This document shows, piece after piece, positions 8,087 to 26,095 of a stretch of DNA of 32,000 nt (positions within the stretch are counted from its first letter, which is position 1; each line of letters starts with the position of its first letter). The notes below the pieces were generated by a model. It was not told the DNA's origin. It ran no database searches and worked only from the letters and a program-made list of their open reading frames with translations. This DNA is from Candidatus Electronema halotolerans (GTDB lineage: Bacteria; Desulfobacterota; Desulfobulbia; Desulfobulbales; Desulfobulbaceae), in assembly GCA_942493095.1 (NCBI GenBank), contig OW818675.1:150001-182000 (forward strand), in the 5' to 3' direction. The position numbers and the translations under genes are program-made.

Positions 8087-8866
8087 ATGCCATTTGAAAT
8101 TTTTGATAGTTATGCCCGTTATTATGATTTGCTGAATCGCGACAAGAATTACGCTAAGGAAGCCAATTATATTCATCAACTGATTCGGAAAAGTGTACCG
8201 AATGCAAAAGAATTGTTGGACTTTGGCTGCGGCACAGGACTCCATGCTGCCGAATTGGCAAAATTCGGCTATAATGTCCACGGAATAGATCAAAGCGAAG
8301 CAATGCTTTCCTTGGCTGAATCCCGTCGTTTAAATTTGCCGCAAGAACAAAAAAAACAGCTATCCTTCTCTCAAGCGGACATCCGTCAACTCAAGTTAAA
8401 CAAAAAATTTGATGGAATTATTGCGCTGTTCCATGTTGTCAGTTATTTGACTGCCAATACGGATTTGCTCTCCGCTTTTCGCACAGTCCGTGATCATTTG
8501 CAACCAGAAGGTATTTTTATCTTTGACTGCTGGTACGGACCTGGTGTTTTAACCGACCGTCCCGCAATCCGAGTGCGGGAATGGGAGGATGATGCAAGCA
8601 CCATTATTCGTATAGCCGATCCAAAACTTTATCCAAATGAGAATATTGTCAATGTAACCTATCGAATTAATATTCACGATAAGGCAAGCGGCAGAATGAA
8701 CAAATTTTCCGAGGTGCATCGAATGCGATATTTATTTCTTCCAGAACTACAGATGATGCTGGAGACTGCTGGAATGAAAATATGTGCTTATCATGAGTGG
8801 GATAATACAAAAAAAGTTAATTTTGATTCGTGGACATTAACTGTATCAGCAGCGGTTACCACATAA
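8087..8866 (+). CDS. Class I SAM-dependent methyltransferase, TylM1/DesVI-like architecture (possible amino-sugar N-methyltransferase)
   Basis: YARYYDLL..KNYAKEANYI precedes the SAM motif LLDFGCGTGLH. The C-terminal beta-rich extension is laid out as in sugar N,N-dimethyltransferases. ATG 8087 is preferred over TTG 8081. Confidence 0.8.
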   Translation: MPFEIFDSYARYYDLLNRDKNYAKEANYIHQLIRKSVPNAKELLDFGCGTGLHAAELAKFGYNVHGIDQSEAMLSLAESRRLNLPQEQKKQLSFSQADIRQLKLNKKFDGIIALFHVVSYLTANTDLLSAFRTVRDHLQPEGIFIFDCWYGPGVLTDRPAIRVREWEDDASTIIRIADPKLYPNENIVNVTYRINIHDKASGRMNKFSEVHRMRYLFLPELQMMLETAGMKICAYHEWDNTKKVNFDSWTLTVSAAVTT

Positions 8867-8890
8867 TATAAAAAATGACCTGAGAACTTT

Positions 8891-10096
8891 ATGCGTGTTG
8901 GTGTATTCGTTTCTATAGCTGATAAAACTATTGGCGGTAGCTATACTTTTCAGCATAGCATTGCTTCATCATTAGATAAAATAAAAACAAAACATGATTT
9001 TGTTATTTTTAATGCCGCAAAAAGAGACGACAACTTACAGACATCAGTTGCTCAGTATAGTCTCAAGTCATTATATGCCCATAAAAAAAATAATATTTTT
9101 GATCGTTCGTTTACAAAAAAAATATTATATTTTTTATATGAAAAAGCAAGACGTAATTTTTATAAAAAATTCTGTTTGGAAAATTACGCTATAACTGTAG
9201 CTGATGATTTCAACTTAGATATTGCATGGTATCTTTTGCCAATAGATTACCAGCTATCAATTCCATATATCATAACAGTCTGGGATTTACAACATAGAAT
9301 GCAACCTTATTTTCCAGAAGTTAGCATTAAAGGATGGACTTGGGAGGATAGAGAAAAATTTTATCGTAGAATGATTCCTAAAGCAGCATTGGTTGTAACA
9401 GGAACTAATGTTGGAAAAGAAGAAATTATTCATTTTTATGCTCCAAATCCTGCAAATGTTAGAGTAGTTCCATTTCCTACGCCAGAATATATACATAAAA
9501 ATTATTCATATTCAGATCAAGATATATTAAAAAAATTTGGATTATTACCAGGTTATTTATTTTATCCTGCTCAATTTTGGCCTCATAAGAATCATATCAA
9601 TTTATTAAAAGCTATAGCTATTTTAAGAGATCAATATAATTTGGAATTAGAAGTTGTATTTGTTGGTTCAGATGAAGGAAGCGAAGAGTATGTTCGTGCA
9701 ACAGCGAACGAATTAAAAATAAAAGCACACATACTTGGTTTTGTTCCTGTTGAAGCTATGGCTTCTCTGTATCGTCAAGCAATGGCACTTATCTTTCCAA
9801 CTTTTTTTGGTCCAGACAATCTTCCTCCTTTGGAAGCATTTGCTTTAGGCTGTCCCGTAGCGGCATCGAGAATTCCAGGAGCGGAAGAGCAGCTTGGGGA
9901 TGCAGCAATTTTATTTAATCCAGCAGATCCTCAGAAAATTGCTAATGCTGTATTCATTATAAATGAAAATAAGGAATATCGATCAGAGTTAATCAAAAGA
10001 GGCTATTTGAAAAATACAATCAATTCAATCGAATATACAGAAAATATATGTAGATTTCTTGATGAATTTGAAAATATACGATATTGCTGGAAATAG
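8891..10096 (+). CDS. Glycosyltransferase, GT4 (GT-B, Glycos_transf_1) family
   Basis: YLFYPAQFWPHKNHINLLKA..VFVGSD..FPTFFGPDNLPPLEAFALGCPVAAS..GAEEQLGDAAILFNP is the typical C-terminal GT4 domain with the E-x7-E region. Confidence 0.88.
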   Translation: MRVGVFVSIADKTIGGSYTFQHSIASSLDKIKTKHDFVIFNAAKRDDNLQTSVAQYSLKSLYAHKKNNIFDRSFTKKILYFLYEKARRNFYKKFCLENYAITVADDFNLDIAWYLLPIDYQLSIPYIITVWDLQHRMQPYFPEVSIKGWTWEDREKFYRRMIPKAALVVTGTNVGKEEIIHFYAPNPANVRVVPFPTPEYIHKNYSYSDQDILKKFGLLPGYLFYPAQFWPHKNHINLLKAIAILRDQYNLELEVVFVGSDEGSEEYVRATANELKIKAHILGFVPVEAMASLYRQAMALIFPTFFGPDNLPPLEAFALGCPVAASRIPGAEEQLGDAAILFNPADPQKIANAVFIINENKEYRSELIKRGYLKNTINSIEYTENICRFLDEFENIRYCWK

Positions 10097-10101
10097 AGAA
10101 G

Positions 10102-10980
10102 ATGCAAAATACAAAAGAAAAAATTACTGTAATTACTGTTGTGTTAAACGATGCCTCCAATGTAGAAAAAACTTTTTTTAGCGTTGCGAATCAATCTTAC
10201 TCTGAAATAGAGCATGTCATCATTGATGGAGGATCAGTTGATGAGACAGTTGATATAATTAAAGACTATATAAAAAAGAATCAAGAAAGGAATATCCTGT
10301 TTCTTAGTGAAAAAGATGACGGTATATATGACGCTATGAATAAGGGTATATATTTGGCTACAGGAAAATATATTGTATTTATGAACTGCGGGGATATATT
10401 TTTTGACGATACAGTGATTGAGAAGTTTGCCAGTGAACAACATCAAGATGACTTTGTGTTTGGCAATACAATATTAAGGAAACAAGATGAGAAAGAAATT
10501 ATCTGTAAAGCAGAAATAGAAAATATCTTGAAAAAAATGCCTTTTGTTCATCAGTCATGCTTTGTTAGAGCAACGTTACAAAAGCGACTTAAATTTGATA
10601 CTTCATTTAGAATCTCAGCAGATTATGATTTTCTTTTAAGAGCATATAAAAAAGGATGCACTTTTAAAAAATTAGATCGTTTTATTGCTATACATAAGAC
10701 GGATGGAATATCAAATTCTTCTGTTTTTCAAGTGTCAATAGAATCTCTGCATGCTCTGTTGAACTATGATTCTATGGCTAATATTCGAGAAACTGCATAT
10801 TTTGCAGATATTATAATTAAAGAAATTCTTGAAGTAAACAAGCCTCGCTTTTTATCAATTTTGATTCAAAACACAAGAAAATTAAAATCGATTTCTTGGA
10901 AAAGGCACCCATTGAAGAAAGCTTTGTCTCTTCTCACTTTATTACGTAGTTTTAAAAATTTTCACGAGACCTTAAGATGA
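10102..10980 (+). CDS. Glycosyltransferase family 2 (WcaE-like small GT2)
   Basis: ITVITVVLND..NQSY..EHVIIDGGSVDET..DDGIYDAMNKGI..GKYIVFMNCGD shows the GT-A fold with a DxD-like region. ATG 10102 is preferred over TTG 10084, which overlaps the previous gene. Confidence 0.85.
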   Translation: MQNTKEKITVITVVLNDASNVEKTFFSVANQSYSEIEHVIIDGGSVDETVDIIKDYIKKNQERNILFLSEKDDGIYDAMNKGIYLATGKYIVFMNCGDIFFDDTVIEKFASEQHQDDFVFGNTILRKQDEKEIICKAEIENILKKMPFVHQSCFVRATLQKRLKFDTSFRISADYDFLLRAYKKGCTFKKLDRFIAIHKTDGISNSSVFQVSIESLHALLNYDSMANIRETAYFADIIIKEILEVNKPRFLSILIQNTRKLKSISWKRHPLKKALSLLTLLRSFKNFHETLR

Positions 10981-12230
10981 ATATTCTTCACATCAACACA
11001 TTTGATAACAAAGGTGGTGCTGCAAGAGCAGCTTATAGAATACATTCTTCCTTGAAAGAAATAGGTGTTTCATCTGAGATGTTGGTAGCTAAAAAAAAAG
11101 GAGTTTATGATGATAAAAGCATAAAGGAATTTCATATACCTTTTTTGAAGAGCAAAAAGTGGCTTGCGAGTAAAATATTATCATTTCATAAAAAACAAAA
11201 TGTCAGCTACATATCCTATAATTTATTTTATTCAGGGATACATAAAATAATCAATCAGTCAAAGGCGGATATTGTACATCTTCATTGGATTGGCAACGAG
11301 ATGATAAGTATATCTGAAATACGAAGAATAAAAAAGAAGATTGTTTGGACACTGCATGATATGTGGGCTTTCTCCGGTACTGAACATTATGATGATATAA
11401 ATTATCCGGGGAGGTACCGCTTTGTATATAGCAAAGAAAATAGAGCAGATGAGTATAATGGAATTATAGATATTGATGCTTGGATATGGCGAAAAAAGAA
11501 AAAATACTGGCGTGATGTTTGTTTTAATTTTGTTACGCCAAGTAAATGGCTTGCAAAATGTTTAAGCGAAAGTTCATTGTTTTTTGGACAAGAAGCAGTT
11601 GTTATTCCAAACTGTCTCGATATTGATATATTTAAACCGGCAAAAAACAACTATGTTCAAGAAAAAGAAAATTATTACTCAAGAAAAAAATTGATATTAT
11701 TTGGAGCCGTCCGGGGAAAGGATAATGAATTAAAAGGTTTTCTTCTTTTGAAAAAAGCTCTTGTGAATATTTCATCTAATGCTTCAGTTAAAAATTTAGA
11801 ATGTATTATTTTTGGTGGAGAAAAAAAAGATGCTTTTGAAGTTATTAACGGAATAAATATAAGAGATGTTGGACAGATAAATGATGACAAAAAGTTAGCA
11901 GCTCTCTATAGCTCTGCTGATGTTTTTGTAACACCATCTTTATTGGAGGCTTTTGGGCAGACAGCATCTGAAGCGCATGCATGTGGCACACCTGTAGTAG
12001 CTTTTAATAACAGTGGATTGTCAGACATTATTGAACATAAAAAAACAGGCTATTTGGCTGAAGCATTTAGTTCAGAAGATCTGGCCGCAGGTATTGCTTG
12101 GGTGCTTGCTGATGAGGAAAGATTGATTGAATTAGGAATACAGGCTAGAAAAAAAGCTGAATTAGCTTACAATTATGAAACTGTTGGTCGGCAGTATAAA
12201 GAATTATATAATAAAGTCTTGAGTTCATAA
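10977..12230 (+). CDS. Glycosyltransferase, GT4 family
   Basis: MNILHINTFDNKGGAARAAYRIH (N-terminus), then VFVTPSLLEAFGQTASEAHACGTPVVAFNNSGLSDIIEHKKTGYLA (C-terminus). The ATGA start/stop overlap with the upstream gene suggests translational coupling. Confidence 0.88.
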   Translation: MNILHINTFDNKGGAARAAYRIHSSLKEIGVSSEMLVAKKKGVYDDKSIKEFHIPFLKSKKWLASKILSFHKKQNVSYISYNLFYSGIHKIINQSKADIVHLHWIGNEMISISEIRRIKKKIVWTLHDMWAFSGTEHYDDINYPGRYRFVYSKENRADEYNGIIDIDAWIWRKKKKYWRDVCFNFVTPSKWLAKCLSESSLFFGQEAVVIPNCLDIDIFKPAKNNYVQEKENYYSRKKLILFGAVRGKDNELKGFLLLKKALVNISSNASVKNLECIIFGGEKKDAFEVINGINIRDVGQINDDKKLAALYSSADVFVTPSLLEAFGQTASEAHACGTPVVAFNNSGLSDIIEHKKTGYLAEAFSSEDLAAGIAWVLADEERLIELGIQARKKAELAYNYETVGRQYKELYNKVLSS

Positions 12231-12273: not shown

Positions 12274-12966
12274 ATGAAGATATTGTCTGTTATTCCCGCC
12301 CGTGGCGGCTCCAAAGGGATACCAAAAAAGAATATCCAGAAACTGTGCGGCAAGCCCTTGCTTGCTTATTCTATTGAAGCGGCATTGCAGACTGAACTGG
12401 TCAATCGGGTTGCTGTTTCCACAGACGATCAAAAAATAGCTGATGTTGCATTTGAATATGGCGCAGAAATTATCCGTCGTCCCGCAGAACTGGCAGGCGA
12501 TGTTGTTTCTTCTGAAGCAGCTTTGCTTCATGTTTTGGAGACATTGCATAAAAATGAAGGGTATTATTCTGATATTTTAGTTTTTCTGCAATGCACCTCG
12601 CCTTTGATGTTGTCTGCTGATATTGACGGAACCATCCAAGCCTTGCTGGATCAGCAAGCAGACACTGCCTTTGCTGCGGCACCGTTTCATTATTTTATCT
12701 GGTCAAGAAATGCTGACGGCAGCATGATTGGTGTGAATCATGACAAGCAAAAAAGACTGATGCGGCAGCAGCGGCAGAATCAGTTTATCGAAGCAGGGGC
12801 TGTTTATGTTATGCGTGTGCCCGGATTCATGGAGTACAGACACAGATTTTTCGGCAAAACAGTGATGTATGAAATGCCTGAAGAACGATGCTTTGAAATA
12901 GATGAACCAGTTGATTTGCTGATTGCGGAAAAACTGATTGAACATCAGAGAACTGTGCAAGCATGA
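12274..12966 (+). CDS. Acylneuraminate (nonulosonic acid) cytidylyltransferase, NeuA-like (CTP_transf_3)
   Basis: The canonical N-terminus is MKILSVIPARGGSKGIPKKNI..LCGKPLLAYSI. The size (230 aa) fits stand-alone CMP-NulO synthetases. Confidence 0.88.
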   Translation: MKILSVIPARGGSKGIPKKNIQKLCGKPLLAYSIEAALQTELVNRVAVSTDDQKIADVAFEYGAEIIRRPAELAGDVVSSEAALLHVLETLHKNEGYYSDILVFLQCTSPLMLSADIDGTIQALLDQQADTAFAAAPFHYFIWSRNADGSMIGVNHDKQKRLMRQQRQNQFIEAGAVYVMRVPGFMEYRHRFFGKTVMYEMPEERCFEIDEPVDLLIAEKLIEHQRTVQA

Positions 12967-18636: not shown

Positions 18637-19491
18637 GTGCCAAAGATTAGTGTCGTTATACCATGTTATAATCATGGCAAATATATTGATAGAGCTGTTG
18701 ACTCCATACTTGGTCAAACATTTGCCGATGTAGAAATTATAGTTGTCAATGATGGGTCAACAGATCAGTTTACTGTAAAAAAATTAAATAACTATAAAAA
18801 AGCAAAAACCAAAATTCTGCATACAGTCAATCAGGGGCCGTCAGCAGCTCGGAATATTGGGATAAGTCAGGCAAAAGGAGAATATATTCTTGTTTTAGAT
18901 GCAGATGATCATTATCATTCAACCTTTTTAGAGAAAGGAATTGCTATTTTTGAGCAAGACCATAAAATTGGCATAGTAGCCTGCGGCATTCAAAATTTTG
19001 GTCTTGACTCAGGAAAAAAAATGCCGAAGGGAGGGGATGTGCGTGCATTTCTGGCTCCTTCTGGACTCACGGGCAGTGCTTTGCTGCGTAAAGTGTGCTG
19101 GGAGCAAGCAGGAGGTTACGATGAAAGCATGAAGACATCAGGTTATGAAGATTGGAATTTTTGGATTGATGTGACAAAAAGAGGCTGGCTGGTTCATATC
19201 ATTGAAGAATATCTCTTCTATTATAATTGGCAGGATGATTCAAGAAGAACAATGCTGAACAGTCAACGTGCAGCATCGCTCAGTCATGTCGTCAGAAATC
19301 ATCGGGATGTATTTGGTCAATATGTTGATCTTGTTGTTTTGAATAAAGATAAAGAAGTGATGGCTATGAAAGGACAGCGTGATGCCTTGGCATCTTCTTT
19401 GGAATACAGGTTAGGCTGCCGTCTTCTTCAGTCGCTGCGGTTCTTTCAGAAATTTTTTGGCATGGATGCATCTGTACATGATAATGCTTGA
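18637..19491 (+). CDS. Glycosyltransferase family 2
   Basis: ISVVIPCYNHGKYIDRAVDSILGQTF.DVEIIVVNDGSTD..ARNIGI..GEYILVLDADD (GT-A, DxD); YEDWNFW. GTG start. Confidence 0.88.
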   Translation: MPKISVVIPCYNHGKYIDRAVDSILGQTFADVEIIVVNDGSTDQFTVKKLNNYKKAKTKILHTVNQGPSAARNIGISQAKGEYILVLDADDHYHSTFLEKGIAIFEQDHKIGIVACGIQNFGLDSGKKMPKGGDVRAFLAPSGLTGSALLRKVCWEQAGGYDESMKTSGYEDWNFWIDVTKRGWLVHIIEEYLFYYNWQDDSRRTMLNSQRAASLSHVVRNHRDVFGQYVDLVVLNKDKEVMAMKGQRDALASSLEYRLGCRLLQSLRFFQKFFGMDASVHDNA

Positions 19492-20662
19492 TTCAAAGCT
19501 ACAACGAAATCATTTCAAACCAAAAATTCTTTTTCTTCGTTCTTTTTCTCAAGTAACATTTGCCGCATTTATAGCTGGAGGTTTACATTACGCTCAGTTT
19601 GATTTCATGCAGTATCCTCCTCTTCCAGAGAACAGGCTGGGTAAGCTGGATAAGCTTTATGCTTCAACCGAAGCGAGGAATCATTTACAACGAAATGTCA
19701 TTACTGCAAGAAAAGAACTCAAAAAAAAGATAGAACAAGGTTTTTTTGATCTTATCCTCCTGCTTGATTACGATTCCAGCCTGTTTCGTTATACACAAAT
19801 GAGCTGGTTAAAAAAATTGAGGGACTTAGCGGGGCAAAGTAAATTTTTTTTCAGGAAAAAGTGGTCCGAGATTTTCAAAGAACTTGTTTGCATGCAGGGA
19901 GTGCCATTCATGCCTTCCGCACTTTCCTCCAACAGGACAGCACTTGCTGTAATTGATTTAGATGATTGGATATGCCTTCATAGTTCTGGACAAAAATTGC
20001 TGCAAGCCTGTTCCTCTTATTACAAACGAGAACTGCCCTATAACCGTTTTTTTCTGTACTATCAGCAGCGTCCTGCACCTTGGCGGCTTTGGCGTGAAAA
20101 GCTTGCTCCAATCTGCACAAAAGTTCACAATATCCCTTTGGGAATAGAGGATGAAAAATACTCTGCTCTGAAAAAATTGCGTAAAAATGAACAGGATATT
20201 GATATTTTTTACTGTGGACAATCAACCAGCACAATCAGAATAACCGCTTTGAAGAATTTGAAAGAATTTGCTGCAACAACATCTTGGAATATTGTTATCA
20301 AAGATGACCTGTCTTTTTCAGAATATTGTGCTGCTGTTGCCAGAAGCAAAATTACTCTTTCTATTTCTGGGGGCGGATGGGATTGTTTTCGGCATTATGA
20401 GGCTGTTGCCTTGGGTTCTGTCCCTTTGATGGATGCGCCTACAGTTGATGCCTTCTGGTGGAACCAAGCACCCACAGAACTGTTTTTCACCGGTACATTC
20501 AAAGATTTCCAGCTAAAAATAGATAAACTTTTATCCAATGCCTGCTTACGAAGTAAATGTTTCATTCAATTAGAAAATCTTATAGAGTCACGCATGCTGC
20601 ATTCTAAAATTGTAAAATATATAGTGCATTCATCTTTTAATAAAAAATATGTGGCTTGTTAG
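19466..20662 (+). CDS. Uncharacterised protein, probable glycosyltransferase-like (exostosin/CgeB-type C-terminal region)
   Basis: The C-terminal pattern IDIFYCGQST..R...L......Y......SKITLSISGGGWDCFRHYEAVALGSVPLMD resembles Glyco_trans_1_2/exostosin-type domains. The N-terminal ~230 aa were not recognised. The start is uncertain (TTG 19457; ATG 19466, 19478 or 19484) and overlaps the upstream gene end. Confidence 0.6.
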   Translation: MHLYMIMLDSKLQRNHFKPKILFLRSFSQVTFAAFIAGGLHYAQFDFMQYPPLPENRLGKLDKLYASTEARNHLQRNVITARKELKKKIEQGFFDLILLLDYDSSLFRYTQMSWLKKLRDLAGQSKFFFRKKWSEIFKELVCMQGVPFMPSALSSNRTALAVIDLDDWICLHSSGQKLLQACSSYYKRELPYNRFFLYYQQRPAPWRLWREKLAPICTKVHNIPLGIEDEKYSALKKLRKNEQDIDIFYCGQSTSTIRITALKNLKEFAATTSWNIVIKDDLSFSEYCAAVARSKITLSISGGGWDCFRHYEAVALGSVPLMDAPTVDAFWWNQAPTELFFTGTFKDFQLKIDKLLSNACLRSKCFIQLENLIESRMLHSKIVKYIVHSSFNKKYVAC

Positions 20663-20667
20663 TTTTC

Positions 20668-21672
20668 ATGTTTGGTTATTATCGATTTATCCTTGCTGTA
20701 TTTGTGTTAATGTCACATTTAGACTTTAGTCTTCAAGGATTTAACATCGGGGTTGCGTCAGTTATTTCTTTTTACATGTTGGCTGGTTATGTGGTTTGCA
20801 ATCTGCTGACGAATGTCTTCGTGATAGACAAAACAGTATATGTTCGATTCTACTGCGAACGAATTCTCAGAATATATCCTCAGTATCTTTTTATTGTTTT
20901 GCTAACAATAATATTTGTAATCATTTCAGGAAATATTCTTTATCAAAAAGACATTTATATTCTTTTAAAGAACATTTTAATAGTACCAGTTAATTATTAC
21001 ATGTTTAATGACGTGTCATTTTTTCCGGAAAACAGGTATAGTATTGTGCCAATATCTTGGTCGCTTGGTTTAGAACTGCAAGCGTATATTTTGCTGCCAT
21101 TTATAGTTTTCTACAAAAAAATAAGGGTAGTGAGCACTGTTCTCTCTTTTTTTATATTTATATTGGCATGTTTTGGCTGGCTGAATACAAATTATTACGG
21201 TTACAAGCTTTTGCCAGGTGTTTTATTTATATTTAATACAGGAGTAATTTTGGCCATCAAAACTTACTCTCCAGATAAGCTCTCTGTATTTGATAAATAC
21301 TTTCCACCAATTCTTTATGGATCAGCAATATTGCTCGCAATAACTTTAGGTATTTTCAACAGAGTTCATATCCCGCACTCAATTCAAGTGATTATTGGAA
21401 TTCTTATTTCGATACCAATTATCAGTTATCTTGATTCTTTTGATAAAAAAATTATTTTCAATCGATTTATGGGCAATCTTTCCTATGGCATATTCTTATC
21501 GCATTATCTTTCGATATGGATAGTTAAATTCACATTTGAGATTGACCCACATAGCACTCCTTATTTATTTGCATTTCTTGTTTTTATTCTGTCATTCTTT
21601 ATCGCTGCTGCTGGATCGGCTGGGGTGGAAAGAGTATTTATAAACTGGCGGTACAGTTTGGCAAAAAAATAA
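20668..21672 (+). CDS. Integral-membrane acyltransferase family 3 (sugar O-acyl/acetyltransferase)
   Basis: YRFILAVFVLMSHL near the N-terminus, SWSLGLELQAYILLPF, and roughly 9-10 hydrophobic segments. ATG 20668 is preferred over TTG 20656. Confidence 0.85.
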   Translation: MFGYYRFILAVFVLMSHLDFSLQGFNIGVASVISFYMLAGYVVCNLLTNVFVIDKTVYVRFYCERILRIYPQYLFIVLLTIIFVIISGNILYQKDIYILLKNILIVPVNYYMFNDVSFFPENRYSIVPISWSLGLELQAYILLPFIVFYKKIRVVSTVLSFFIFILACFGWLNTNYYGYKLLPGVLFIFNTGVILAIKTYSPDKLSVFDKYFPPILYGSAILLAITLGIFNRVHIPHSIQVIIGILISIPIISYLDSFDKKIIFNRFMGNLSYGIFLSHYLSIWIVKFTFEIDPHSTPYLFAFLVFILSFFIAAAGSAGVERVFINWRYSLAKK

Positions 21673-21712
21673 AAAGTGTATTTTTAACCCCGTGATCAAT
21701 TACGATGGAACC

Positions 21713-23071
21713 ATGAAGACCAAACCACTGCTGATCATACCTGTGGAAACCAAGGTACGGGAGTTTGATGCTAAACTTTTACTTGCTGTTGTTGCCCTTC
21801 AGCGCGGTTTTGATGTGGTGCTTGGCGCATTATGGGAGCTGAAATTTTTCACCGAGTTGCTTGACCGGGGAATTTTTTTAGACAAGAGCATTGCCAAGAC
21901 CAAGGTGAAATGGTTCAGCCGCTGTCGGCAGCAGGGCCATCGCGTTGCCGCCTTGGATGAGGAAGGTTTGGTCTATTTTGACGCTAAGACCTATCGTCAG
22001 CTTCGCATTTATTCTCCTTCCTTGGAAGCAGCAGATTTATTTTTTGCCTGGGGTAAAAATCAGGCCGAAGTAATGTCTCCAGTAATTGACACATTGATGA
22101 AACGAATACGGCTTGTCGGCAATTCAAGATTTGATCTGCTTCGACCGGAGTTGCGCAAAATTTACAACAAAAATGTTGACGGACTGCGTAAAAAATATGG
22201 CAGATTCATCTTGTTCAACACGAATTTTTCCTTTGCCAACAGTGCCAATAATGACGCATCGTTATTACGGGCTTTTTCTCAGTGTCCTATTGAGACAGAA
22301 CAGCCCGGCTTTTTTGCAGGCTGGACAGAAGCCCAGCACAAGGTCCTGCAATCTTTTCAGGAAGTTCTGCCCTTAGTGCGGGAACGCTTTCCAGAACACA
22401 CGATCATCATTCGTCCGCACCCTTCGGAAGATTTGCAGTTCTGGCACGATGCTGCGCTTTCCCTGAAGCAGACCGTCGTGATCCGAGAAGGCAATGTTGT
22501 GCCGTGGCTGCTGGCTGCTGATGTGCTGGTGCATTGGAACTGCACCACTGCCATTGAAGCTCTTCTGCTCGGCAAACCTGCGATTGCTTATCGCAAAGAG
22601 CAGCCTGATTTTTATGAGCAGCCTCTGCCCAACGCATGCAGTTTTCATGCCGCCAGTTCTGATGAATTGCTGGACATGCTCGACCAAGCCATTGCAGGCC
22701 GCCTCACCGCCTCTCCTGAACAACTTGCCGAGCAGGGCAAAATTCTGGCGCATCATATCTCCTCCTTGCAGGGCAGTCTGGCAGCGGAAAAAATGGTTGA
22801 GGAACTGCTTCAGCTCAGTCAGACCTTTCCTCGCCAACGAAACATCTCTCAGCGGACTGTTCAGGTGATGAAACGTCTATGGCGGGCAGTGCTGGACCAG
22901 CTCGACCGCAGCAGACAGATTCGGGATTCTTATGTTGCGGGAAAATTTCCTGATACCACAGCAGATGAGGTGCAGAAGCGGGTGCAAGTTTTGTCGGAAT
23001 GTTTGGGTTATTCTATGGATATTACGGTTCGGGAAAAATGCCGTAACTGTTTTTCTCTGTCTGCGACATAG
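21713..23071 (+). CDS. Uncharacterised surface-carbohydrate biosynthesis protein; candidate CMP-nonulosonic acid transferase
   Basis: Contains ALDEEGL (DEEG at 21956-21967) and IIIRPHPSE (HP at 22418-22423), which fit the D/E-D/E-G and HP motifs described for bacterial sialyltransferases of CAZy GT38/52/80. The C-terminus reads ..VLVHWNCTTAIEALLLGKPAIAY, like a GT-B nucleotide-binding half. ATG 21713 is preferred over GTG 21692. Confidence 0.55.
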   Translation: MKTKPLLIIPVETKVREFDAKLLLAVVALQRGFDVVLGALWELKFFTELLDRGIFLDKSIAKTKVKWFSRCRQQGHRVAALDEEGLVYFDAKTYRQLRIYSPSLEAADLFFAWGKNQAEVMSPVIDTLMKRIRLVGNSRFDLLRPELRKIYNKNVDGLRKKYGRFILFNTNFSFANSANNDASLLRAFSQCPIETEQPGFFAGWTEAQHKVLQSFQEVLPLVRERFPEHTIIIRPHPSEDLQFWHDAALSLKQTVVIREGNVVPWLLAADVLVHWNCTTAIEALLLGKPAIAYRKEQPDFYEQPLPNACSFHAASSDELLDMLDQAIAGRLTASPEQLAEQGKILAHHISSLQGSLAAEKMVEELLQLSQTFPRQRNISQRTVQVMKRLWRAVLDQLDRSRQIRDSYVAGKFPDTTADEVQKRVQVLSECLGYSMDITVREKCRNCFSLSAT

Positions 23072-23080
23072 CCTTCATTC

Positions 23081-24040
23081 ATGCCTGAGCCGCAAATTGT
23101 TTTTCTTACCTATCTGAATCGGTCAGGTTCCACCTATCTTGCCGACAAATTGAGCCGCTACAAAGCGATAAAAATGGGCATTGAGGCCCGTTTTGTTGAC
23201 GGGTGGATCAGGCCAGGCTTTTTTGTCCGCACTTCGGACGAGTTGCGCTTGTATCTTGACAGGCTGTATCAGGATGCAAAATTTCAGGCATGGCAAATCG
23301 ACCGGGATGTATTGGCCAAGCATCTGGCCGCGCTCACTCTGCCGCTCCGCTTCAGTGATGTGCTGCTGACCGCTTTCTCGCTGTACCAAGGCAGTGCTCC
23401 AGAAAAACACATTTTGGTGCATAAATGCGGTGAATATTACCGTTGTGTGGAAACCATCCGGCAAGAACTGCCAAGGGCAAAATTCATTTTTATCAACCGC
23501 GACCCCCGTGCGGTCTTCAGTTCGCAGAGACGCAGTTTTGACAGTCAAACTGGGCAGCCGATGCAGGAAAATGTGCTTCATTTTCTCTTTGGGTATCTTG
23601 ACACCCTGCGGCGGCTTGAGCAGTTGCGGAACGATCCTGATTTTCTGACGGTCCAGTACGAGGAACTGCTTGCAGATGAAGAAAAAGTGATGGCTGAGAT
23701 AGAACACTTTCTTGGATTGTCCAGCCCAGCAAAACAGACAGACATATCCGGCGGCAGTTATTTTTCTTCAATCCCCAGAGAACAGCAGCATCTTCACGCC
23801 CATCTGCAGGATGGTCGGCCTTGCGCGGACAGGATCACCGGCTGGCAGCGGGAGCTGCCGGTTTCACATATTCTGCTCCTCCAGACTGTGCTTAAACGCT
23901 ATTTGCTTGATAGAGATTTTCCCTTGCACAGACCTGCAAAAACAGGGCTGTCTGCATTCTCGCATTTTGTTTTTCTTCTTTGTTCGTATTGGTACGAATC
24001 CAGCAAGCGGAAGTTTTTTCATATCGAGCATAAATATTGA
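23081..24040 (+). CDS. Sulfotransferase (Sulfotransfer_3-like)
   Basis: 5'-phosphosulfate-binding loop FLTYLNRSGSTYL (RSGST 23120-23134) and 3'-phosphate motif FINRDPRAVFSS (23498-23524). Confidence 0.8.
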   Translation: MPEPQIVFLTYLNRSGSTYLADKLSRYKAIKMGIEARFVDGWIRPGFFVRTSDELRLYLDRLYQDAKFQAWQIDRDVLAKHLAALTLPLRFSDVLLTAFSLYQGSAPEKHILVHKCGEYYRCVETIRQELPRAKFIFINRDPRAVFSSQRRSFDSQTGQPMQENVLHFLFGYLDTLRRLEQLRNDPDFLTVQYEELLADEEKVMAEIEHFLGLSSPAKQTDISGGSYFSSIPREQQHLHAHLQDGRPCADRITGWQRELPVSHILLLQTVLKRYLLDRDFPLHRPAKTGLSAFSHFVFLLCSYWYESSKRKFFHIEHKY

Positions 24041-24046
24041 GAAATT

Positions 24047-24856
24047 GTGAGCAAGTTCAGAGAAAAATATTACGCGCTGACTGCTGTATTTCGTCCTCTG
24101 CCAAACTTTATCATCATTGGAGCGCAAAAAGCAGGAACAACATCGTTGTTTCATTACATTTGTCAGCATCCGCAAGTTTTTGCCAACAACAGCAAGGAAA
24201 TTCATTTCTTTGACCGGCATCACCAATTGGGCGCAAATTGGTACAGTTCTCATTTTCCTCTTGCAGGCCGATTGCAGCCAGGCCGCCGCAGCCGCATGGG
24301 CGAAGCAACACCCTATTATCTCTGTCATCCCCATGCGCCGGGCCGAATTGCCGCATTGCTGCCAAAGGTGAAACTGATTGCCGTTCTGCGGCATCCTGTT
24401 GAACGAGCCATTTCCCATTATTTTCACGAAAAGAAAAAAGGGCGGGAGCATCTTCCCATCTTGGAGGCAATGCAGCGGGAGGAGGAACGCTGCGCCGGAG
24501 AATGGCAAAGAATGCTTGAGGACGCATCATATTTCAGTCAAACTCATCAGTCATTTTCTTATAAACAGCGGGGAATCTATATCGAACAGTTGCAGCGATA
24601 CTGGAAGTTTTTTTCAAAAGAGCAGATTTTTATTGTGGAAAGCAGCCGGTTATTTTCCAAGCCGCAGGCTGTGCTTAAACAAGTATTTAATTTTTTAGAA
24701 ATTGATTCCAGCATAGTTATTCAAGATGTTGCCGTGAAAAACGCCAATCCGACCAAGAAGGCAGCGGAGCCTGAAGTTTATGCGTATCTGAAGCAATTTT
24801 TTGCGCCGCATAATGAGATGCTGCAAAACGCTCTTGGCCAAGATTTCGGCTGGTAA
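24047..24856 (+). CDS. Sulfotransferase (Sulfotransfer_1-like, carbohydrate sulfotransferase type)
   Basis: PNFIIIGAQKAGTTSL (KAGTTS 24128-24145) and IAVLRHPVERAISHY (24389-24415) are the PAPS-binding PSB and PB motifs. GTG start. Not a close paralog of the preceding sulfotransferase. Confidence 0.85.
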   Translation: MSKFREKYYALTAVFRPLPNFIIIGAQKAGTTSLFHYICQHPQVFANNSKEIHFFDRHHQLGANWYSSHFPLAGRLQPGRRSRMGEATPYYLCHPHAPGRIAALLPKVKLIAVLRHPVERAISHYFHEKKKGREHLPILEAMQREEERCAGEWQRMLEDASYFSQTHQSFSYKQRGIYIEQLQRYWKFFSKEQIFIVESSRLFSKPQAVLKQVFNFLEIDSSIVIQDVAVKNANPTKKAAEPEVYAYLKQFFAPHNEMLQNALGQDFGW

Positions 24857-24859
24857 AAT

Positions 24860-26095
24860 ATGCGGATTTGCATGCTGACATACTATTATTGGCCTGTTCC
24901 GGCTGGAGGTGCGGAGAACCAATGCCGACGACTTGCCAAGGCCTTAGCAGCGCGTGAGCATCAATGTTTGATTTTGACCTGCCGCTACAGCAGCGCAGCG
25001 GCCCAGAAGGAGGAGGAAAACGGGGTTGCGATTGTCAGAATATTTTCTTTGGAACTATTTCTTCAGTTTCTCCAATCGTTGAGAGATAAAAAAAAAGCGT
25101 CGCAGGGAAAAGAACAAAGCAACGGCAGCTCGACAGCGGCAGATGATCAAACTGTATTGCGACAAAAAATATCAAAAAAAATAAATTTTTGTATCAGATT
25201 CTGCAATATTACCGCATTCTCTTTTACCGCGTTGTTTTTTCTCTTCAGGAAGCATCGTTCTTTTGATATCCTGCATGTCCACACCGCCGACTGGATTGCC
25301 GGATTAGCCGCTTTTGCCGGAAAGATATTCAAGCTGCCTGTGATCTGCAAAGGAGCAGACATGCCAGTTTTTCCGCCCCTTCAAGCCGTGCCGCTGGCTG
25401 CCTGCTGTGATAGGTGGCGAAGGATGCCGCATTTCATCGCCCTCACGCCAGCCATGAAAGATGATCTTGTACAGAACCATGTTCCTGAAAACAAGATCAC
25501 GATCATTCCCAACGGAGTGTCCATTCCCGCCCAGACAGCTCCTGTTGAAAAAAACAGTCATTTTTTATATATTGGCAATTTCAGCCAGACCGCAGCCCAT
25601 AAAGCCTTTGATGTGCTGCTGGAGGCGTGGACAGCGTTTCATCATCATCGGCCAGCTCCACGGCTGCTGCTTTTAGGTGGTGGTGATGCGGAGCCGTGGC
25701 AGGCATTGGCGCGGCAGCTCGGCTGTGCCGACTCGGTGGATTTTTTGGGCTATCAAACCTCGTTGACACCTTTTTTCACGCAGAGCTGCTGCCTCCTTCT
25801 GCCTTCCCGCAAAGAGGGAATTGCGAATGCCCTGCTCGAAGCGCAGAGCTGGGGCATTCCGGCCATTGTCTCTGATATTCCTGGCAATCGGGCTGTAGTT
25901 GCGCATCAAAAAAACGGCCTGATTGTTCCTGTCGGCGACAGCAAAGCACTTGCGGAAGCCATGCTGCATCTGCATGACTCGCCAGAGCTGCGCAAGGAAT
26001 ACAGTGCAGCAGCCCGGAAACGGATGGAGGACGTTTTCGCCTTGGACAAGGTGGCTGACCAGACTGTCGTGCTGTATCAGCAGCTTGCAGGATAA
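24860..26095 (+). CDS. Glycosyltransferase, GT4 family
   Basis: MRICMLTYYYWPVPAGGAENQCRRLAKAL (N-terminus); LLLPSRKEGIANALLEAQSWGIPAIVSDIPGNRAVVAHQKNGLIVP (C-terminus). Carries a Lys/Ser-rich plus hydrophobic insert around aa 75-130. Confidence 0.88.
   Translation: MRICMLTYYYWPVPAGGAENQCRRLAKALAAREHQCLILTCRYSSAAAQKEEENGVAIVRIFSLELFLQFLQSLRDKKKASQGKEQSNGSSTAADDQTVLRQKISKKINFCIRFCNITAFSFTALFFLFRKHRSFDILHVHTADWIAGLAAFAGKIFKLPVICKGADMPVFPPLQAVPLAACCDRWRRMPHFIALTPAMKDDLVQNHVPENKITIIPNGVSIPAQTAPVEKNSHFLYIGNFSQTAAHKAFDVLLEAWTAFHHHRPAPRLLLLGGGDAEPWQALARQLGCADSVDFLGYQTSLTPFFTQSCCLLLPSRKEGIANALLEAQSWGIPAIVSDIPGNRAVVAHQKNGLIVPVGDSKALAEAMLHLHDSPELRKEYSAAARKRMEDVFALDKVADQTVVLYQQLAG

What the first reader, a model, noticed from the sequence alone, without database searches (positions are those of the whole stretch)
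8087..26095. 20-kb glycan operon combining a nonulosonic-acid module with sulfo-, carbamoyl-, methyl- and acyl-transferases but no export or initiation genes
Sixteen co-directional genes have gaps of 0-45 nt and several ATGA overlaps. They encode 3 GT4, 3 GT2, 1 exostosin/CgeB-like protein and 1 sialyltransferase-motif protein. They also encode a NeuA-like cytidylyltransferase, a NeuB-type fusion synthase, a NodU/CmcH carbamoyltransferase, two SAM methyltransferases, an acyltransferase-3 and two unrelated PAPS-type sulfotransferases. Sulfated bacterial glycans are uncommon; known cases include rhizobial Nod factor/LPS, mycobacterial sulfolipids and cyanobacterial sulfated exopolysaccharide. 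I do not recognise a described locus that pairs sulfation with a NulO sugar plus carbamoylation, methylation and acylation. The window has no Wzx/Wzy, Wzm/Wzt, initiating phosphoglycosyltransferase, NeuC-type epimerase or PAPS-synthesis genes. The acceptor (O-antigen, capsule, or protein such as flagellin, pilin or S-layer) and the export route are therefore open.
Basis: partly seen in the sequence, partly recalled or inferred. Interest (0 to 1): 0.75.

Follow-up and report, generated by a model that had tools for sequence, protein, structure and literature searches.

The report
Cable-bacterium sulfated surface-glycan gene cluster
This is a real 16-gene sugar-polymer operon from an electricity-conducting "cable bacterium"; it probably builds a heavily decorated (sulfated, carbamoylated, methylated, acylated) acidic surface polysaccharide, and the "missing" export genes are probably a window-edge and transposon-insertion effect, so it is an unusual variant of a known kind of locus, not a new system.

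Summary
The closest relatives are cable bacteria (Ca. Electronema sp. KV, 72-90% protein identity for g05-g19, with identical downstream neighbours). g05-g16 is syntenic in KV. Most of it, including the block g13 (putative ulosonic-acid transferase) + two sulfotransferases + GT4, is also kept in Ca. Electrothrix.

"No export genes" is literally true of the window but probably an edge effect. A 7.76-kb nest of IS elements splits a DegT-methyltransferase-GT4 cassette that is contiguous elsewhere. The KV cluster starts with Wzm/Wzt ABC-exporter genes. Only the acyltransferase-3 is a multi-pass membrane protein, which fits cytoplasmic assembly followed by ABC export.

The "nonulosonic-acid module" needs qualifying. 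The 750-aa CBS-NeuB-SAF-TIM-barrel fusion belongs to a widespread, uncharacterised NeuB subfamily. It misses the NeuB/PseI equivalog cut-offs, has Ser in place of the Arg314 of N. meningitidis NeuB, and has no NeuC/PseB-type partners. The sugar is therefore unknown.

Sulfated ABC-exported glycans and ulosonic-acid O-antigens are both known. I found no described locus with this combination. Verdict: new variant of a known kind, moderate interest.

The parts
1..321 (+). 3' end (106 codons) of a DegT/perosamine-synthetase-type aminotransferase. It is the upstream member of a DegT-MT-GT4 cassette, so the glycan locus continues beyond the window start.
   Evidence: Frame-1 translation. NCBIfam PseC/LegC/DesI C-terminal matches. 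Homologues are named perosamine synthetase by JGI. It directly precedes g01/g02 homologues in 38 metagenome loci and in L009.
322..8075 (+). Nested IS block inserted between DegT and g01. Contents: IS30-family tnp 553-1470; ISL3 tnp split into two ORFs 1549-2175 and 2135-2851; IS66-family tnp 3052-4560 and 4807-6177; a partial IS66 3' duplicate 6200-6717 plus 8031-8071, interrupted by a 1.3-kb IS4/5-type element 6718-8030 (tnp 6852-7865).
   Evidence: Pfam transposase domains. 27-nt inverted repeats 6718-6744/8004-8030, 300-nt and 45-nt direct repeats. Best sigma70-like match of the region at 7834-7861 (11/12), facing g01.
8081..8866 (+). g01, class I SAM methyltransferase (261 aa); cassette partner of DegT and g02.
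   Evidence: Methyltransf_25/11/12, E 1e-15 to 1e-17. 41-51% identical homologues lie between DegT and GT4 in metagenome loci. N-terminus aligned from residues 3-11, so it is not truncated by the IS.
8891..10096 (+). g02, GT4 glycosyltransferase (401 aa), GC 0.32.
   Evidence: Glycos_transf_1, 78 bits. Homologues at about 40-45% identity are widespread in metagenomes.
10084..10980 (+). g03, GT2 glycosyltransferase (298 aa), GC 0.30.
   Evidence: Glycos_transf_2, 82 bits.
10977..12230 (+). g04, GT4 glycosyltransferase (417 aa), GC 0.33. Only 47% identical to the KV gene at the same position.
   Evidence: Glycos_transf_1, 98 bits.
12274..12966 (+). g05, CMP-ulosonic-acid synthetase-like cytidylyltransferase (230 aa).
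   Evidence: CTP_transf_3, 94 bits. PseF 151 bits, below the 205.7 cut-off, plus weaker KdsB hits. Accompanies the NeuB fusion in 42 of 49 genome loci.
12963..15215 (+). g06, 750-aa fusion: CBS pair, NeuB-type PEP-aldose condensing domain, SAF domain, and a metal-dependent TIM barrel of the ketose-epimerase/sugar-isomerase type.
   Evidence: Pfam. PDB PseI/NeuB E 1e-48 to 1e-54 with catalytic His residues kept. Arg314-equivalent is Ser424 across the family. TIM domain model pLDDT 93.8; Foldseek hits to tagatose/ribulose 3-epimerases, UlaE and xylose isomerase, TM 0.6-0.72.
15223..16926 (+). g07, NodU/CmcH-family O-carbamoyltransferase (567 aa).
   Evidence: Carbam_trans_N 217 bits and Carbam_trans_C 251 bits. 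90% identical in KV and 83% in E. laxa, both next to the fusion.
16955..17881 (+). g08, class I SAM methyltransferase (308 aa).
   Evidence: Methyltransf_11, 66 bits.
17883..18629 (+). g09, GT2 glycosyltransferase (248 aa).
   Evidence: Glycos_transf_2, 65 bits.
18637..19491 (+). g10, GT2 glycosyltransferase (284 aa).
   Evidence: Glycos_transf_2, 109 bits. 77-78% identical in KV and E. laxa.
19457..20662 (+). g11, GT-B-like protein (401 aa) of uncertain activity. The start codon is uncertain (35-nt overlap with g10).
   Evidence: RXYLT1_C 31 bits (cut-off 27) and a weak Glyco_trans_1_2 hit. Conserved next to g10 in KV (70%) and E. laxa (58%).
20656..21672 (+). g12, acyltransferase-3 family membrane O-acyltransferase (338 aa).
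   Evidence: Acyl_transf_3, 54 bits. About 9 hydrophobic segments; it is the only multi-pass membrane protein in the cluster.
21692..23071 (+). g13, putative CMP-ulosonic-acid (sialyltransferase-like) glycosyltransferase (459 aa).
   Evidence: TIGR04396, 369 bits (cut-off 125). BFO_1060 glycosyltransferase domain model, 103 bits, below its cut-off. Invariant D89/E91/G92 and H243/P244. Weak Capsule_synth (KpsC/S) hit. Linked to ST3-ST1-GT4 in 5 of 6 related loci.
23081..24040 (+). g14, PAPS-type sulfotransferase (Sulfotransfer_3; 319 aa).
   Evidence: 74 bits. Motifs NRSGST (5'-PSB) and RDPRAVFSS (3'-PB). 65-85% identical orthologues in KV, E. laxa and L164.
24047..24856 (+). g15, PAPS-type carbohydrate sulfotransferase (Sulfotransfer_1; 269 aa).
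   Evidence: 70 bits. PDB heparan-sulfate 3-O-sulfotransferase E 6e-25. Motifs QKAGTT and RHPVERAIS. Orthologues in Electronema and Electrothrix at 66-85%.
24860..26095 (+). g16, GT4 glycosyltransferase (411 aa); always follows the two sulfotransferases.
   Evidence: Glyco_trans_1_4, 104 bits.
26119..28089 (+). g17, bifunctional class II aldolase / short-chain dehydrogenase (656 aa). It lies 23 nt after g16 and may be co-transcribed.
   Evidence: NF006196, 1041 bits. Follows GT4 in KV and L164, but is replaced by an AsnB-like gene in Electrothrix. GC 0.59, like the flanking core genes.

Best explanation
The region is the larger, 3' part of a cable-bacterium (Ca. Electronema-type, Desulfobulbaceae) surface-polysaccharide locus. 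It most likely works by the ABC-transporter-dependent route.

Proposed mechanism:
1. Soluble GT4, GT2 and GT-B-like enzymes (g02-g04, g09-g11, g16) build a lipid-linked glycan at the cytoplasmic face of the inner membrane.
2. g06, a NeuB-family condensing domain fused to a CBS pair and a sugar-isomerase/epimerase-like TIM barrel, makes a 3-deoxy-2-ulosonic acid of unknown identity from PEP and an aldose that the TIM domain probably supplies from a common ketose.
3. g05 activates this acid with CTP, and g13 transfers it to the glycan.
4. While the chain is still in the cytoplasm, where the donors are available, it is sulfated (g14, g15, from PAPS), carbamoylated (g07, from carbamoyl phosphate) and methylated (g01, g08, from SAM).
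5. The finished chain is exported by a Wzm/Wzt pump encoded upstream, beyond the IS nest and the window edge. It is O-acylated by the membrane AT3 enzyme (g12), and most probably ligated to lipid A-core as an O-antigen-like polyanion.

Shown here: the gene content, its conservation across cable-bacterium genera, the IS disruption, Wzm/Wzt in the KV orthologous cluster, and the distinct NeuB subfamily. Inferred: the sugar identity, the order of steps, the export pump for this particular genome, and the acceptor.
For: - Domain assignments.
- Tight co-directional packing with no internal terminator-like site in an intergenic gap.
- Synteny of g05-g16 plus g17-g19 with Ca. Electronema KV, and of most of g05-g16 with Ca. 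Electrothrix laxa and AU1_5.
- The KV cluster starts MarR-Wzm-Wzt(427 aa)-DegT.
- The NeuB fusion is linked to Wzt in 13 and Wzm in 10 of 49 genome loci (for example Wzm-Wzt-X-CMP synthetase-fusion in L004 and L009).
- The DegT-MT-GT4 cassette is contiguous elsewhere.
- Only AT3 is multi-pass, and no Wzx/Wzy-like protein occurs in the window or in about 43 kb of KV.
- ORF lengths match the KV orthologues, so the genes are not decaying.
- Precedents: Legionella serogroup 1 O-antigen locus (wzm/wzt, wecA, neuABC, lag-1, methyltransferase; PMC3766260); sulfated ABC-exported capsules (PMC11766843, PMC11641403); the cap-recognition model for WzmWzt (PMC9445017).
Against: - Wzm/Wzt were not seen for this genome; its upstream flank could not be recovered.
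- The window's 5' module (DegT, g01-g04) differs from KV's.
- Only 6 of 20 DegT-MT-GT4 cassette loci with enough flank have a Wzt-like gene.
- The KV Wzt C-terminal extension matches neither Pfam's Wzt_C model nor any PDB carbohydrate-binding domain.
- No PAPS-synthesis genes are in the locus, although they were proposed as a hallmark of sulfated-polysaccharide clusters (PMC11641403).
- In the closest relative (L164) the sulfotransferase block stands alone behind a 590-bp non-coding region, so sulfation may target another acceptor.
- The IS nest may have uncoupled g01-g16 from their native promoter.
- No chemistry exists for any cable-bacterium surface glycan.
Confidence: 0.6

Rival explanations
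1. Same biosynthetic logic but a different destination. The polymer is a capsule, sheath or surface-layer polysaccharide, or a periplasmic polyanion tied to the fibre sheath, and is not ligated to lipid A-core.
For: Cable bacteria have a putative surface layer outside the outer membrane (PMC11976967). Their fibre sheath rests on an 'acidic polysaccharide' basal layer (PMC8238962). Cyanobacterial loci with the same NeuB fusion carry polysialyltransferase-family and pyruvyl-transferase genes typical of capsular or extracellular polymers. No WaaL was seen in the regions held.
Against: No KpsE/KpsD/KpsC/KpsS-type capsule export or priming genes occur in about 43 kb of KV or about 37 kb of E. laxa. 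The authors attribute the basal layer to peptidoglycan. A more distant g15 relative lies next to LptF/G and an MsbA-like gene, which is an LPS context.
Confidence: 0.25
2. The 16 genes are two or more functionally independent units that merely abut. One is an ulosonic-acid glycan cluster (g01-g13). The other is a separate ST3-ST1-GT4(-aldolase/SDR) unit that modifies a different acceptor, such as LPS core, a glycolipid or a small molecule.
For: In L164, the closest relative (g17 and g18 about 90% identical), homology to the window starts 7 bp before the g14 start codon. The block there follows terD/lpxB genes and about 590 bp of non-coding DNA. Distant g15 homologues are orphans in non-glycan contexts. 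GC content steps between modules.
Against: g13-ST3-ST1-GT4 adjacency is kept in five loci spanning two genera plus a further relative (window, KV, E. laxa, AU1_5, L174). The g13/g14 gap is 9 nt with no terminator. L174 also keeps a CTP_transf_3 gene beside the block.
Confidence: 0.2
3. The cluster glycosylates a protein (pilin, S-layer or fibre protein) and does not make a free polysaccharide.
For: NeuB/CMP-transferase modules often serve flagellin, pilin or S-layer glycosylation. g13 gives a sub-threshold match to the NCBIfam BFO_1060-family glycosyltransferase domain model; from memory, that name derives from Tannerella, which O-glycosylates its S-layer. A putative surface layer exists.
Against: No oligosaccharyltransferase (PglB/PglL/TfpO) or Maf-type gene was seen. 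Eight or nine glycosyltransferases and the Wzm/Wzt linkage in relatives indicate a polymer.
Confidence: 0.1
4. In this genome the locus is on its way to inactivation: the IS nest has cut it off from its promoter and upstream genes.
For: 7.76 kb of nested IS elements sit inside the locus. One methyltransferase that relatives keep between AT3 and g13 is missing here.
Against: All 16 ORFs are full length compared with their orthologues. A strong outward-facing promoter-like site lies in the last IS.
Confidence: 0.1

Closest known systems
Legionella pneumophila serogroup 1 LPS O-antigen locus (wzm/wzt, wecA, neuA/B/C, lag-1, ORF8 methyltransferase; PMC3766260)
   Same: ABC-transporter-dependent glycan containing a CMP-activated NeuB-derived acid. 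An acyltransferase-3 enzyme (Lag-1) O-acylates the polymer, and a methyltransferase decorates the acid. The locus has conserved and variable regions.
   Different: Legionella has a canonical NeuB with the NeuC and bacillosamine-type precursor genes for legionaminic acid, and makes a homopolymer. It has no sulfotransferases and no carbamoyltransferase. Here the synthase is the CBS-NeuB-SAF-TIM fusion with no precursor genes, there are 8-9 glycosyltransferases (a heteropolymer), and Wzm/Wzt were seen only in the orthologous KV cluster.
Sulfated capsular polysaccharide clusters of marine Cobetia and Vibrio (PMC11766843, PMC11641403)
   Same: ABC-transporter-dependent, cytoplasmically sulfated acidic polysaccharides. 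Sulfotransferases sit among the glycosyltransferases. O-acyl groups are present, some Cobetia polymers combine Kdo with sulfate, and the clusters show mosaic GC and mobile elements.
   Different: Those clusters use Kps-type capsule export with KpsS/C priming and carry their own cysNDC/cysQ PAPS genes. They have no NeuB-type module and no carbamoyltransferase. The window has none of the Kps or PAPS genes.
Cap-dependent WzmWzt O-antigen systems (E. coli O9a WbdD, Aquifex aeolicus, Klebsiella O12 Kdo cap; PMC9445017, PMC3482155)
   Same: The long Wzt (427 aa in KV) with a C-terminal extension, plus methyltransferases and an ulosonic-acid transferase in the cluster, would fit termination by a non-reducing-end cap that certifies the chain for export.
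   Different: No recognisable Wzt carbohydrate-binding domain was detected in the KV extension. Whether the ulosonic acid, sulfate, methyl or carbamoyl group is terminal or internal is unknown.
Canonical sialic, legionaminic and pseudaminic acid synthases (NeuB, LegI, PseI)
   Same: Same fold and catalytic residues: metal histidines, EIGxNH, VKxQ, STGM, and a SAF/antifreeze-like domain. Paired with a CTP_transf_3 cytidylyltransferase.
   Different: Below the equivalog cut-offs. N-terminal CBS pair and C-terminal TIM barrel are fused on. The Arg314-equivalent is replaced by Ser/Cys/Gly in all 48 family members examined, while ordinary NeuB paralogues in the same loci keep Arg. No NeuC/PseB/LegB genes recur nearby.

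Membership tests
ABC-transporter-dependent (Wzm/Wzt) polysaccharide locus | Wzm permease and Wzt ATPase genes in the locus | tested here: inconclusive
   Absent from the window. Present at the head of the syntenic KV cluster (ABC2_membrane 68 bits; ABC_tran, TagH/Wzt-like 180-215 bits). The window's own upstream flank could not be retrieved. Only 6 of 20 DegT-MT-GT4 cassette loci have a Wzt-like gene nearby.
ABC-transporter-dependent (Wzm/Wzt) polysaccharide locus | No Wzx flippase or Wzy polymerase; glycosyltransferases and modifying enzymes are cytoplasmic | tested here: met
   Only g12 (AT3) has more than one hydrophobic segment. No other multi-pass ORF occurs in the window or in KV L002/L162.
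ABC-transporter-dependent (Wzm/Wzt) polysaccharide locus | Initiating phosphoglycosyltransferase (WecA-type) and WaaL ligase somewhere in the genome | not testable with these tools
Neither gene is in the held regions.
Neu5Ac / legionaminic / pseudaminic acid biosynthesis module | NeuB-family synthase with catalytic residues, and a CMP-transferase partner | tested here: met
   NeuB 294 bits, SAF 39 bits, CTP_transf_3 94 bits. Metal His residues and other motifs are conserved against 1xuu and 8h2c.
Neu5Ac / legionaminic / pseudaminic acid biosynthesis module | Equivalog-level match to NeuB/LegI, PseI or PseF | tested here: not met
   NeuB_NnaB 331 bits against 399.65. PseI 257 against 340. PseF 151 against 205.7.
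Neu5Ac / legionaminic / pseudaminic acid biosynthesis module | Substrate-site Arg of the SAF domain (N. meningitidis NeuB Arg314) | tested here: not met
   g06 has Ser424. All 48 fusion-type sequences covering the site have Ser (45), Cys (2) or Gly (1). Six ordinary NeuB paralogues in the same loci have Arg.
Neu5Ac / legionaminic / pseudaminic acid biosynthesis module | Precursor genes (NeuC hydrolysing epimerase, or PseB/C/H/G, LegB/C/H/G) | tested here: not met
   None in the window. In 49 genome loci with the fusion, no such family recurs: epimerase/dehydratase 13, DegT 13, PseB-like 4, and a single weak Epimerase_2 hit.
PAPS-dependent carbohydrate sulfotransferases | Sulfotransferase fold with 5'-PSB and 3'-PB PAPS-binding motifs | tested here: met
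   g14: Sulfotransfer_3 74 bits, NRSGST and RDPRAVFSS. g15: Sulfotransfer_1 70 bits, QKAGTT and RHPVERAIS, heparan-sulfate 3-OST E 6e-25.
Sulfated-polysaccharide gene cluster (as defined in PMC11641403) | PAPS synthesis genes (cysN/D/C, cysQ) in the cluster together with sulfotransferases | tested here: not met
   No such genes in the window, or in KV or E. laxa within the regions held. They may be encoded elsewhere.
NodU/CmcH O-carbamoyltransferases | Kae1-like N domain plus YrdC-like C domain | tested here: met
   Carbam_trans_N 217 bits and Carbam_trans_C 251 bits. The NodU equivalog is not met (174 against 1000), so it is a family member but not NodU itself.
Acyltransferase-3 surface-glycan O-acyltransferases (Lag-1/OafA type) | AT3 domain with about 10 membrane segments | tested here: met
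   Acyl_transf_3 54 bits, spanning residues 10-318. About 9 hydrophobic segments. No fused SGNH domain.
Bacterial sialyltransferase-like GT-B enzymes (GT38/52/80 type) | D/E-D/E-G and HP motifs; homology to a characterised family | tested here: inconclusive
   Motifs are present and invariant in 7 homologues, about 153 residues apart, the same spacing as in the PF07388-family genes beside the fusion in cyanobacteria. hhalign between the two families is not significant (probability 0.06). No PDB sequence match. The single-sequence model is unusable (pLDDT 38).

The most novel reading that the evidence does not exclude
Two linked possibilities. First, the CBS-NeuB-SAF-TIM fusion with its cytidylyltransferase is a self-contained two-gene route to a previously undescribed CMP-activated ulosonic acid, made directly from a central-metabolism ketose. 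Second, in cable bacteria this acid sits in a lineage-conserved, sulfated and carbamoylated polyanionic envelope glycan that forms or organises the acidic polysaccharide or surface layer associated with the conductive fibre sheath, for example by fixing charge, binding metal ions or carrying protons. The locus would then matter for the conduction machinery and would not be only a serotype determinant.
Probability: 0.12. Interest if true: 0.8.

Novelty: new variant of a known kind. Interest (0 to 1): 0.55.

Why it matters
Cable bacteria are studied intensively for centimetre-scale electron transport. Their envelope is known to contain an acidic polysaccharide layer and a putative surface layer, but I found no paper in the searched library on the genetics or chemistry of their surface glycans. 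This locus gives a concrete candidate that is conserved in both cable-bacterium genera, and it predicts a testable chemistry: sulfate, carbamoyl, methyl, acyl and an ulosonic acid.

Separately, the NeuB fusion marks an uncharacterised ulosonic-acid synthase subfamily. It is phylogenetically broad (cyanobacteria, Bacillaceae, proteobacteria, Leptospira relatives, candidate phyla) and current annotation calls it 'N-acetylneuraminate synthase', probably wrongly. Working out its product would correct many annotations and could add a sugar to the bacterial ulosonic-acid repertoire.

If instead the glycan turns out to be an ordinary O-antigen, the finding is a useful but unsurprising catalogue entry.

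Tried and rejected
1. Recovering the window's own upstream flank failed. The exact-protein look-up for g06 found only a 7,985-bp Logan contig. A homologue search with the 106-aa DegT fragment returned only short fragments, the best at 88%.
2. The single metagenome scan with g02 found no close relatives (at most about 45% identity over the full length). It did reveal the conserved DegT-MT-GT4 cassette.
3. I first took the cassette as evidence for Wzm/Wzt. A fairer recount gave only 6 of 20 loci, so I downgraded that argument.
4. I considered that the window's DegT was orthologous to the KV DegT and rejected it: no significant similarity, and the clusters diverge upstream of g05.
5. A stand-alone version of the TIM-barrel domain was rejected: P0312 is a decayed fusion lying next to a NeuB/SAF remnant.
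6. Homology of g13 to the polysialyltransferase-family genes of cyanobacterial loci is not significant by hhalign. There is no PDB sequence hit. The single-sequence AlphaFold model had pLDDT 38, so I ran no fold search on it.
7. The KV Wzt C-terminal extension has no Pfam or PDB match as a carbohydrate-binding domain.
8. The Rfam scan of the whole window found nothing.
9. Literature searches linking cable bacteria to sulfotransferases, sialic acid, PAPS or LPS returned nothing relevant. The cable-bacterium genome paper (PNAS 2019) is not held.
10. A defence-system reading of the GT4-conflict Pfam hits was rejected. They overlap the generic GT1 domain and the gene context is a glycan cluster.

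Full report
**What is in the sequence.** All substantial genes of the window lie on the + strand. From 8081 to 26095 there are 16 ORFs separated by -35 to +43 nt. Two junctions, g03/g04 and g05/g06, are 4-nt overlaps. No terminator-like site falls in any of the intergenic gaps.
- Three GT4 enzymes (g02, g04, g16) and three GT2 enzymes (g03, g09, g10).
- A GT-B-like protein, g11. RXYLT1_C only just passes its cut-off, so 'exostosin-like' is weak.
- g13, which has no Pfam family but scores 369 bits on NCBIfam TIGR04396 'surface carbohydrate biosynthesis protein'. It carries the D/E-D/E-G and HP motifs.
- A CTP_transf_3 cytidylyltransferase (g05) and a 750-aa CBS-NeuB-SAF-AP_endonuc_2 fusion (g06).
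- A two-domain NodU/CmcH carbamoyltransferase (g07) and two SAM methyltransferases (g01, g08).
- An acyltransferase-3 (g12).
- Two unrelated sulfotransferases (g14, g15). Both have recognisable 5'-PSB and 3'-PB PAPS-binding motifs. g15 matches heparan-sulfate 3-O-sulfotransferases at E 6e-25.

The span is 18.0 kb, not 20 kb.

**Where it comes from.** The NeuB fusion is 90% identical to a protein of Ca. Electronema sp. KV and 74% identical to one of Ca. Electrothrix laxa. Both are cable bacteria of the Desulfobulbaceae. In KV the genes g05-g16 are syntenic at 72-90% protein identity. The downstream neighbours are also the same: g17 aldolase/SDR, g18 peptidoglycan-binding protein, g19 FG-GAP protein, at 75-82%. 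The window is therefore the same chromosomal locus in a related Electronema-type organism. Its core genes have higher GC (0.56-0.59, against 0.47-0.49 in KV).

**The 'missing' export genes.** The first 321 bases of the window encode the C-terminus of a DegT/perosamine-synthetase-type aminotransferase. Next come 7.76 kb of transposase genes (IS30, a split ISL3, IS66 twice, and an IS66 fragment), with an IS4/5-type element nested in a duplicated IS66 end.

In 38 metagenome loci and one genome locus, homologues of this DegT, g01 and g02 lie side by side, and in most of them the DegT-methyltransferase gap is 6-45 bp. The N-terminus of g01 is intact. The IS nest therefore sits inside the locus, and the locus runs off the 5' end of the window.

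The KV cluster begins MarR-Wzm-Wzt(427 aa)-DegT-hexapeptide acetyltransferase-GT2-unknown-GT4, and then continues with the g05 and g06 orthologues.

Across 49 genomes that carry the fusion, a Wzt gene is nearby in 13 and a Wzm gene in 10. The order is often Wzm-Wzt-X-cytidylyltransferase-fusion.

Inside the window only the AT3 protein is multi-pass. No Wzx/Wzy-like protein occurs in the window or in about 43 kb of KV.

PAPS, SAM, carbamoyl phosphate and CMP-sugars are cytoplasmic donors. Completing the chain before export is therefore the natural mechanism, and that is what defines the ABC-transporter pathway (PMC9445017).

Two caveats apply. The window's 5' module is not orthologous to KV's. 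Only 6 of 20 cassette loci with sufficient flank show a Wzt-like gene. I put the ABC route at about 0.6 and do not treat it as established. Initiation by a WecA-type enzyme encoded outside the O-antigen region, and PAPS genes encoded elsewhere, would be unremarkable.

**The ulosonic-acid module is not a standard one.** The NeuB domain of g06 keeps the catalytic signature of sialic-acid synthases, including both metal histidines. However:
- It scores below the NeuB and PseI equivalog cut-offs, and g05 scores below the PseF cut-off.
- At the position of N. meningitidis NeuB Arg314, g06 has Ser. PDB entries 4ipi and 4ipj carry Ala and Lys there. From memory, this residue contacts the N-acetyl group of ManNAc and is essential.
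- All 48 fusion-type sequences covering the site have Ser, Cys or Gly. Six ordinary 342-353-aa NeuB paralogues that sit in some of the same loci all keep Arg.
- The C-terminal domain models confidently (pLDDT 93.8). Its best structural matches are metal-dependent ketose 3-epimerases, UlaE and xylose isomerases.
- That domain is essentially always fused. An apparent stand-alone copy is a decayed fusion. It defines 192 clusters at E <= 1e-30 in a 1.84-billion-protein library.
- The only constant neighbour is the cytidylyltransferase, present in 42 of 49 loci. No NeuC, PseB or LegB-type precursor genes recur.

My inference is that the fusion plus the cytidylyltransferase is a self-contained route. 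The TIM barrel probably converts a common ketose (phosphate) into the aldose that the NeuB domain condenses with PEP. The product would be a Kdn-like or other 3-deoxy-ulosonic acid without the usual N-acyl group. This is inference only, and the product is unknown. No paper in the searched library describes this architecture.

**Modularity.** The cluster is a mosaic of three parts.
- g01-g04 (GC 0.30-0.40) are specific to this genome's version. KV has other genes there.
- g05-g13 form a conserved core. The low GC of g08-g12 is shared with KV and so is old.
- g13-ST3-ST1-GT4 adjacency is kept in the window, KV, E. laxa, Electrothrix AU1_5 and a further relative, L174. L174 also has a CTP_transf_3 gene and a third sulfotransferase.

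In L164, the closest relative, homology to the window starts exactly 7 bp before g14. The ST3-ST1-GT4-aldolase/SDR block there stands behind about 590 bp of non-coding DNA and unrelated genes (lpxB, terD). More distant g15 homologues are orphans, or lie beside LptF/G and an MsbA-like gene. The sulfotransferase block is therefore evolutionarily separable. Its usual linkage to the putative ulosonic-acid transferase favours action on the same glycan but does not prove it. The window also lacks a 329-aa methyltransferase that the other four loci with this adjacency keep just upstream of their g13 homologue; in KV and E. laxa it lies between AT3 and g13.

**Comparison with known systems.** The closest characterised locus is the Legionella pneumophila serogroup 1 O-antigen region. 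It has wzm/wzt, wecA, neuA/B/C, the AT3 enzyme Lag-1 and an N-methyltransferase acting on a legionaminic-acid polymer (PMC3766260). It has no sulfation or carbamoylation and uses a canonical NeuB pathway.

Sulfated, ABC-exported capsules with sulfotransferases among the glycosyltransferases are described in Cobetia and Vibrio (PMC11766843, PMC11641403). Some Cobetia polymers combine Kdo and sulfate. Those clusters are Kps-type and carry their own PAPS genes.

The cap-recognition model for WzmWzt names methyl, phosphomethyl and Kdo caps (PMC9445017). That makes a terminal ulosonic acid or methyl/sulfate cap plausible here, but the KV Wzt extension matches no known carbohydrate-binding domain.

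The locus is thus a new variant of a known kind. The architecture and logic are familiar. What I did not find described is this set of decorations together with the fusion synthase.

**Context and significance.** Cable bacteria have a fibre sheath resting on a polysaccharide-rich layer that contains acidic sugars, which the authors attribute to peptidoglycan (PMC8238962). They also have a putative surface layer outside the outer membrane (PMC11976967). Nothing connects those structures to this locus. I raise the possibility only as the most novel reading not excluded by the evidence. From general knowledge, cable bacteria are thought to run a reversed dissimilatory sulfate-reduction pathway through APS, so a single APS kinase would give them PAPS. 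I could not check for that gene.

**Verdict.** The best explanation is an ABC-transporter-type, probably O-antigen-like, polyanionic surface glycan locus conserved in cable bacteria. It is interrupted here by an IS nest and contains an uncharacterised NeuB-fusion synthase. Confidence 0.6, interest 0.55.

Noticed in passing
window 322-8075: A nest of at least five IS elements from four families: IS30, a frameshifted ISL3, IS66 twice plus a partial tandem duplicate, and an IS4/5-type element with 27-nt inverted repeats at 6718-6744 and 8004-8030 inserted 45 nt from the IS66 end. All transposase genes run in the same direction as the glycan genes. The nest sits in what is normally a 6-45 bp DegT-methyltransferase spacer.
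   Followed up: partly
window 7834-7861: The best sigma70-like match of the scanned region (TTGACA-16-TAAAAT, 11/12). It lies at the 3' end of the IS4/5 transposase gene and faces g01, so it may be an IS-borne outward promoter that now drives the cluster.
   Followed up: no
window 12963-15215 (g06) and loci L002-L050: The CBS-NeuB-SAF-TIM fusion is a broad family found in cyanobacteria, Bacillaceae, Alpha-, Beta- and Gammaproteobacteria, Leptospira relatives, Actinomycetota and candidate phyla. It has a family-wide Arg-to-Ser/Cys/Gly change at the N. meningitidis NeuB Arg314 position. It is annotated in public sources as 'N-acetylneuraminate synthase' or 'TIM barrel protein'. Six loci hold both a normal NeuB and the fusion.
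   Followed up: yes
L004, L007, L010, L011, L039 (cyanobacterial loci): Next to the fusion these cyanobacteria carry a PF07388 (alpha-2,8-polysialyltransferase family) gene, polysaccharide pyruvyl transferases and Wzm/Wzt. This suggests an ABC-exported polymer of the fusion's product in cyanobacteria.
   Followed up: partly
L164 9001 / window 23074: In the closest relative, homology to the window begins 7 bp before the g14 start codon. Upstream lie about 590 bp of non-coding DNA, two terD genes and lpxB, in place of g01-g13. This is a sharp rearrangement breakpoint at the g13/g14 junction.
   Followed up: partly
window 21672-21692 (g12/g13 junction); L162 6681-7670, L165 6617-7603, L172 967-1962, L174 3438-4496: A roughly 330-aa Methyltransf_23 gene lies just upstream of the g13 homologue in KV, E. 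laxa, Electrothrix AU1_5 and L174 (in KV and E. laxa, between AT3 and g13). It is cleanly absent from the window, where the g12/g13 gap is 19 nt.
   Followed up: no
window 8891-12230 versus 26119-31730: Extreme GC contrast inside one co-directional gene array: g02-g04 are at 0.30-0.33 (GC3 0.18-0.25), while the flanking core genes are at 0.56-0.59 (GC3 0.65-0.67). This indicates recent import of the 5' variable module.
   Followed up: partly
window 26119-28089 (g17): A bifunctional class II aldolase / short-chain dehydrogenase (NF006196, 1041 bits) follows the last GT4 by 23 nt in the window, KV and L164. In Electrothrix that position is taken by an asparagine-synthase-like gene and further GT4s. 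Whether g17 belongs to the glycan pathway is unclear.
   Followed up: no
window 28272-28300 and 29692-29722: A promoter-like site with an extended -10 (TG) lies upstream of g18, the peptidoglycan-binding protein. A strong 14-bp-stem terminator follows g18. Together they mark g18 as its own transcription unit.
   Followed up: no
L003 1559-3547 (Ca. Electrothrix laxa): A 662-aa protein with about 11 hydrophobic segments and no Pfam match lies just after DegT in the E. laxa version of the locus, followed by a rhamnosyl O-methyltransferase (RMNT_CmcI, 332 bits). It could be a polymerase, ligase or GT-C-type enzyme.
   Followed up: no
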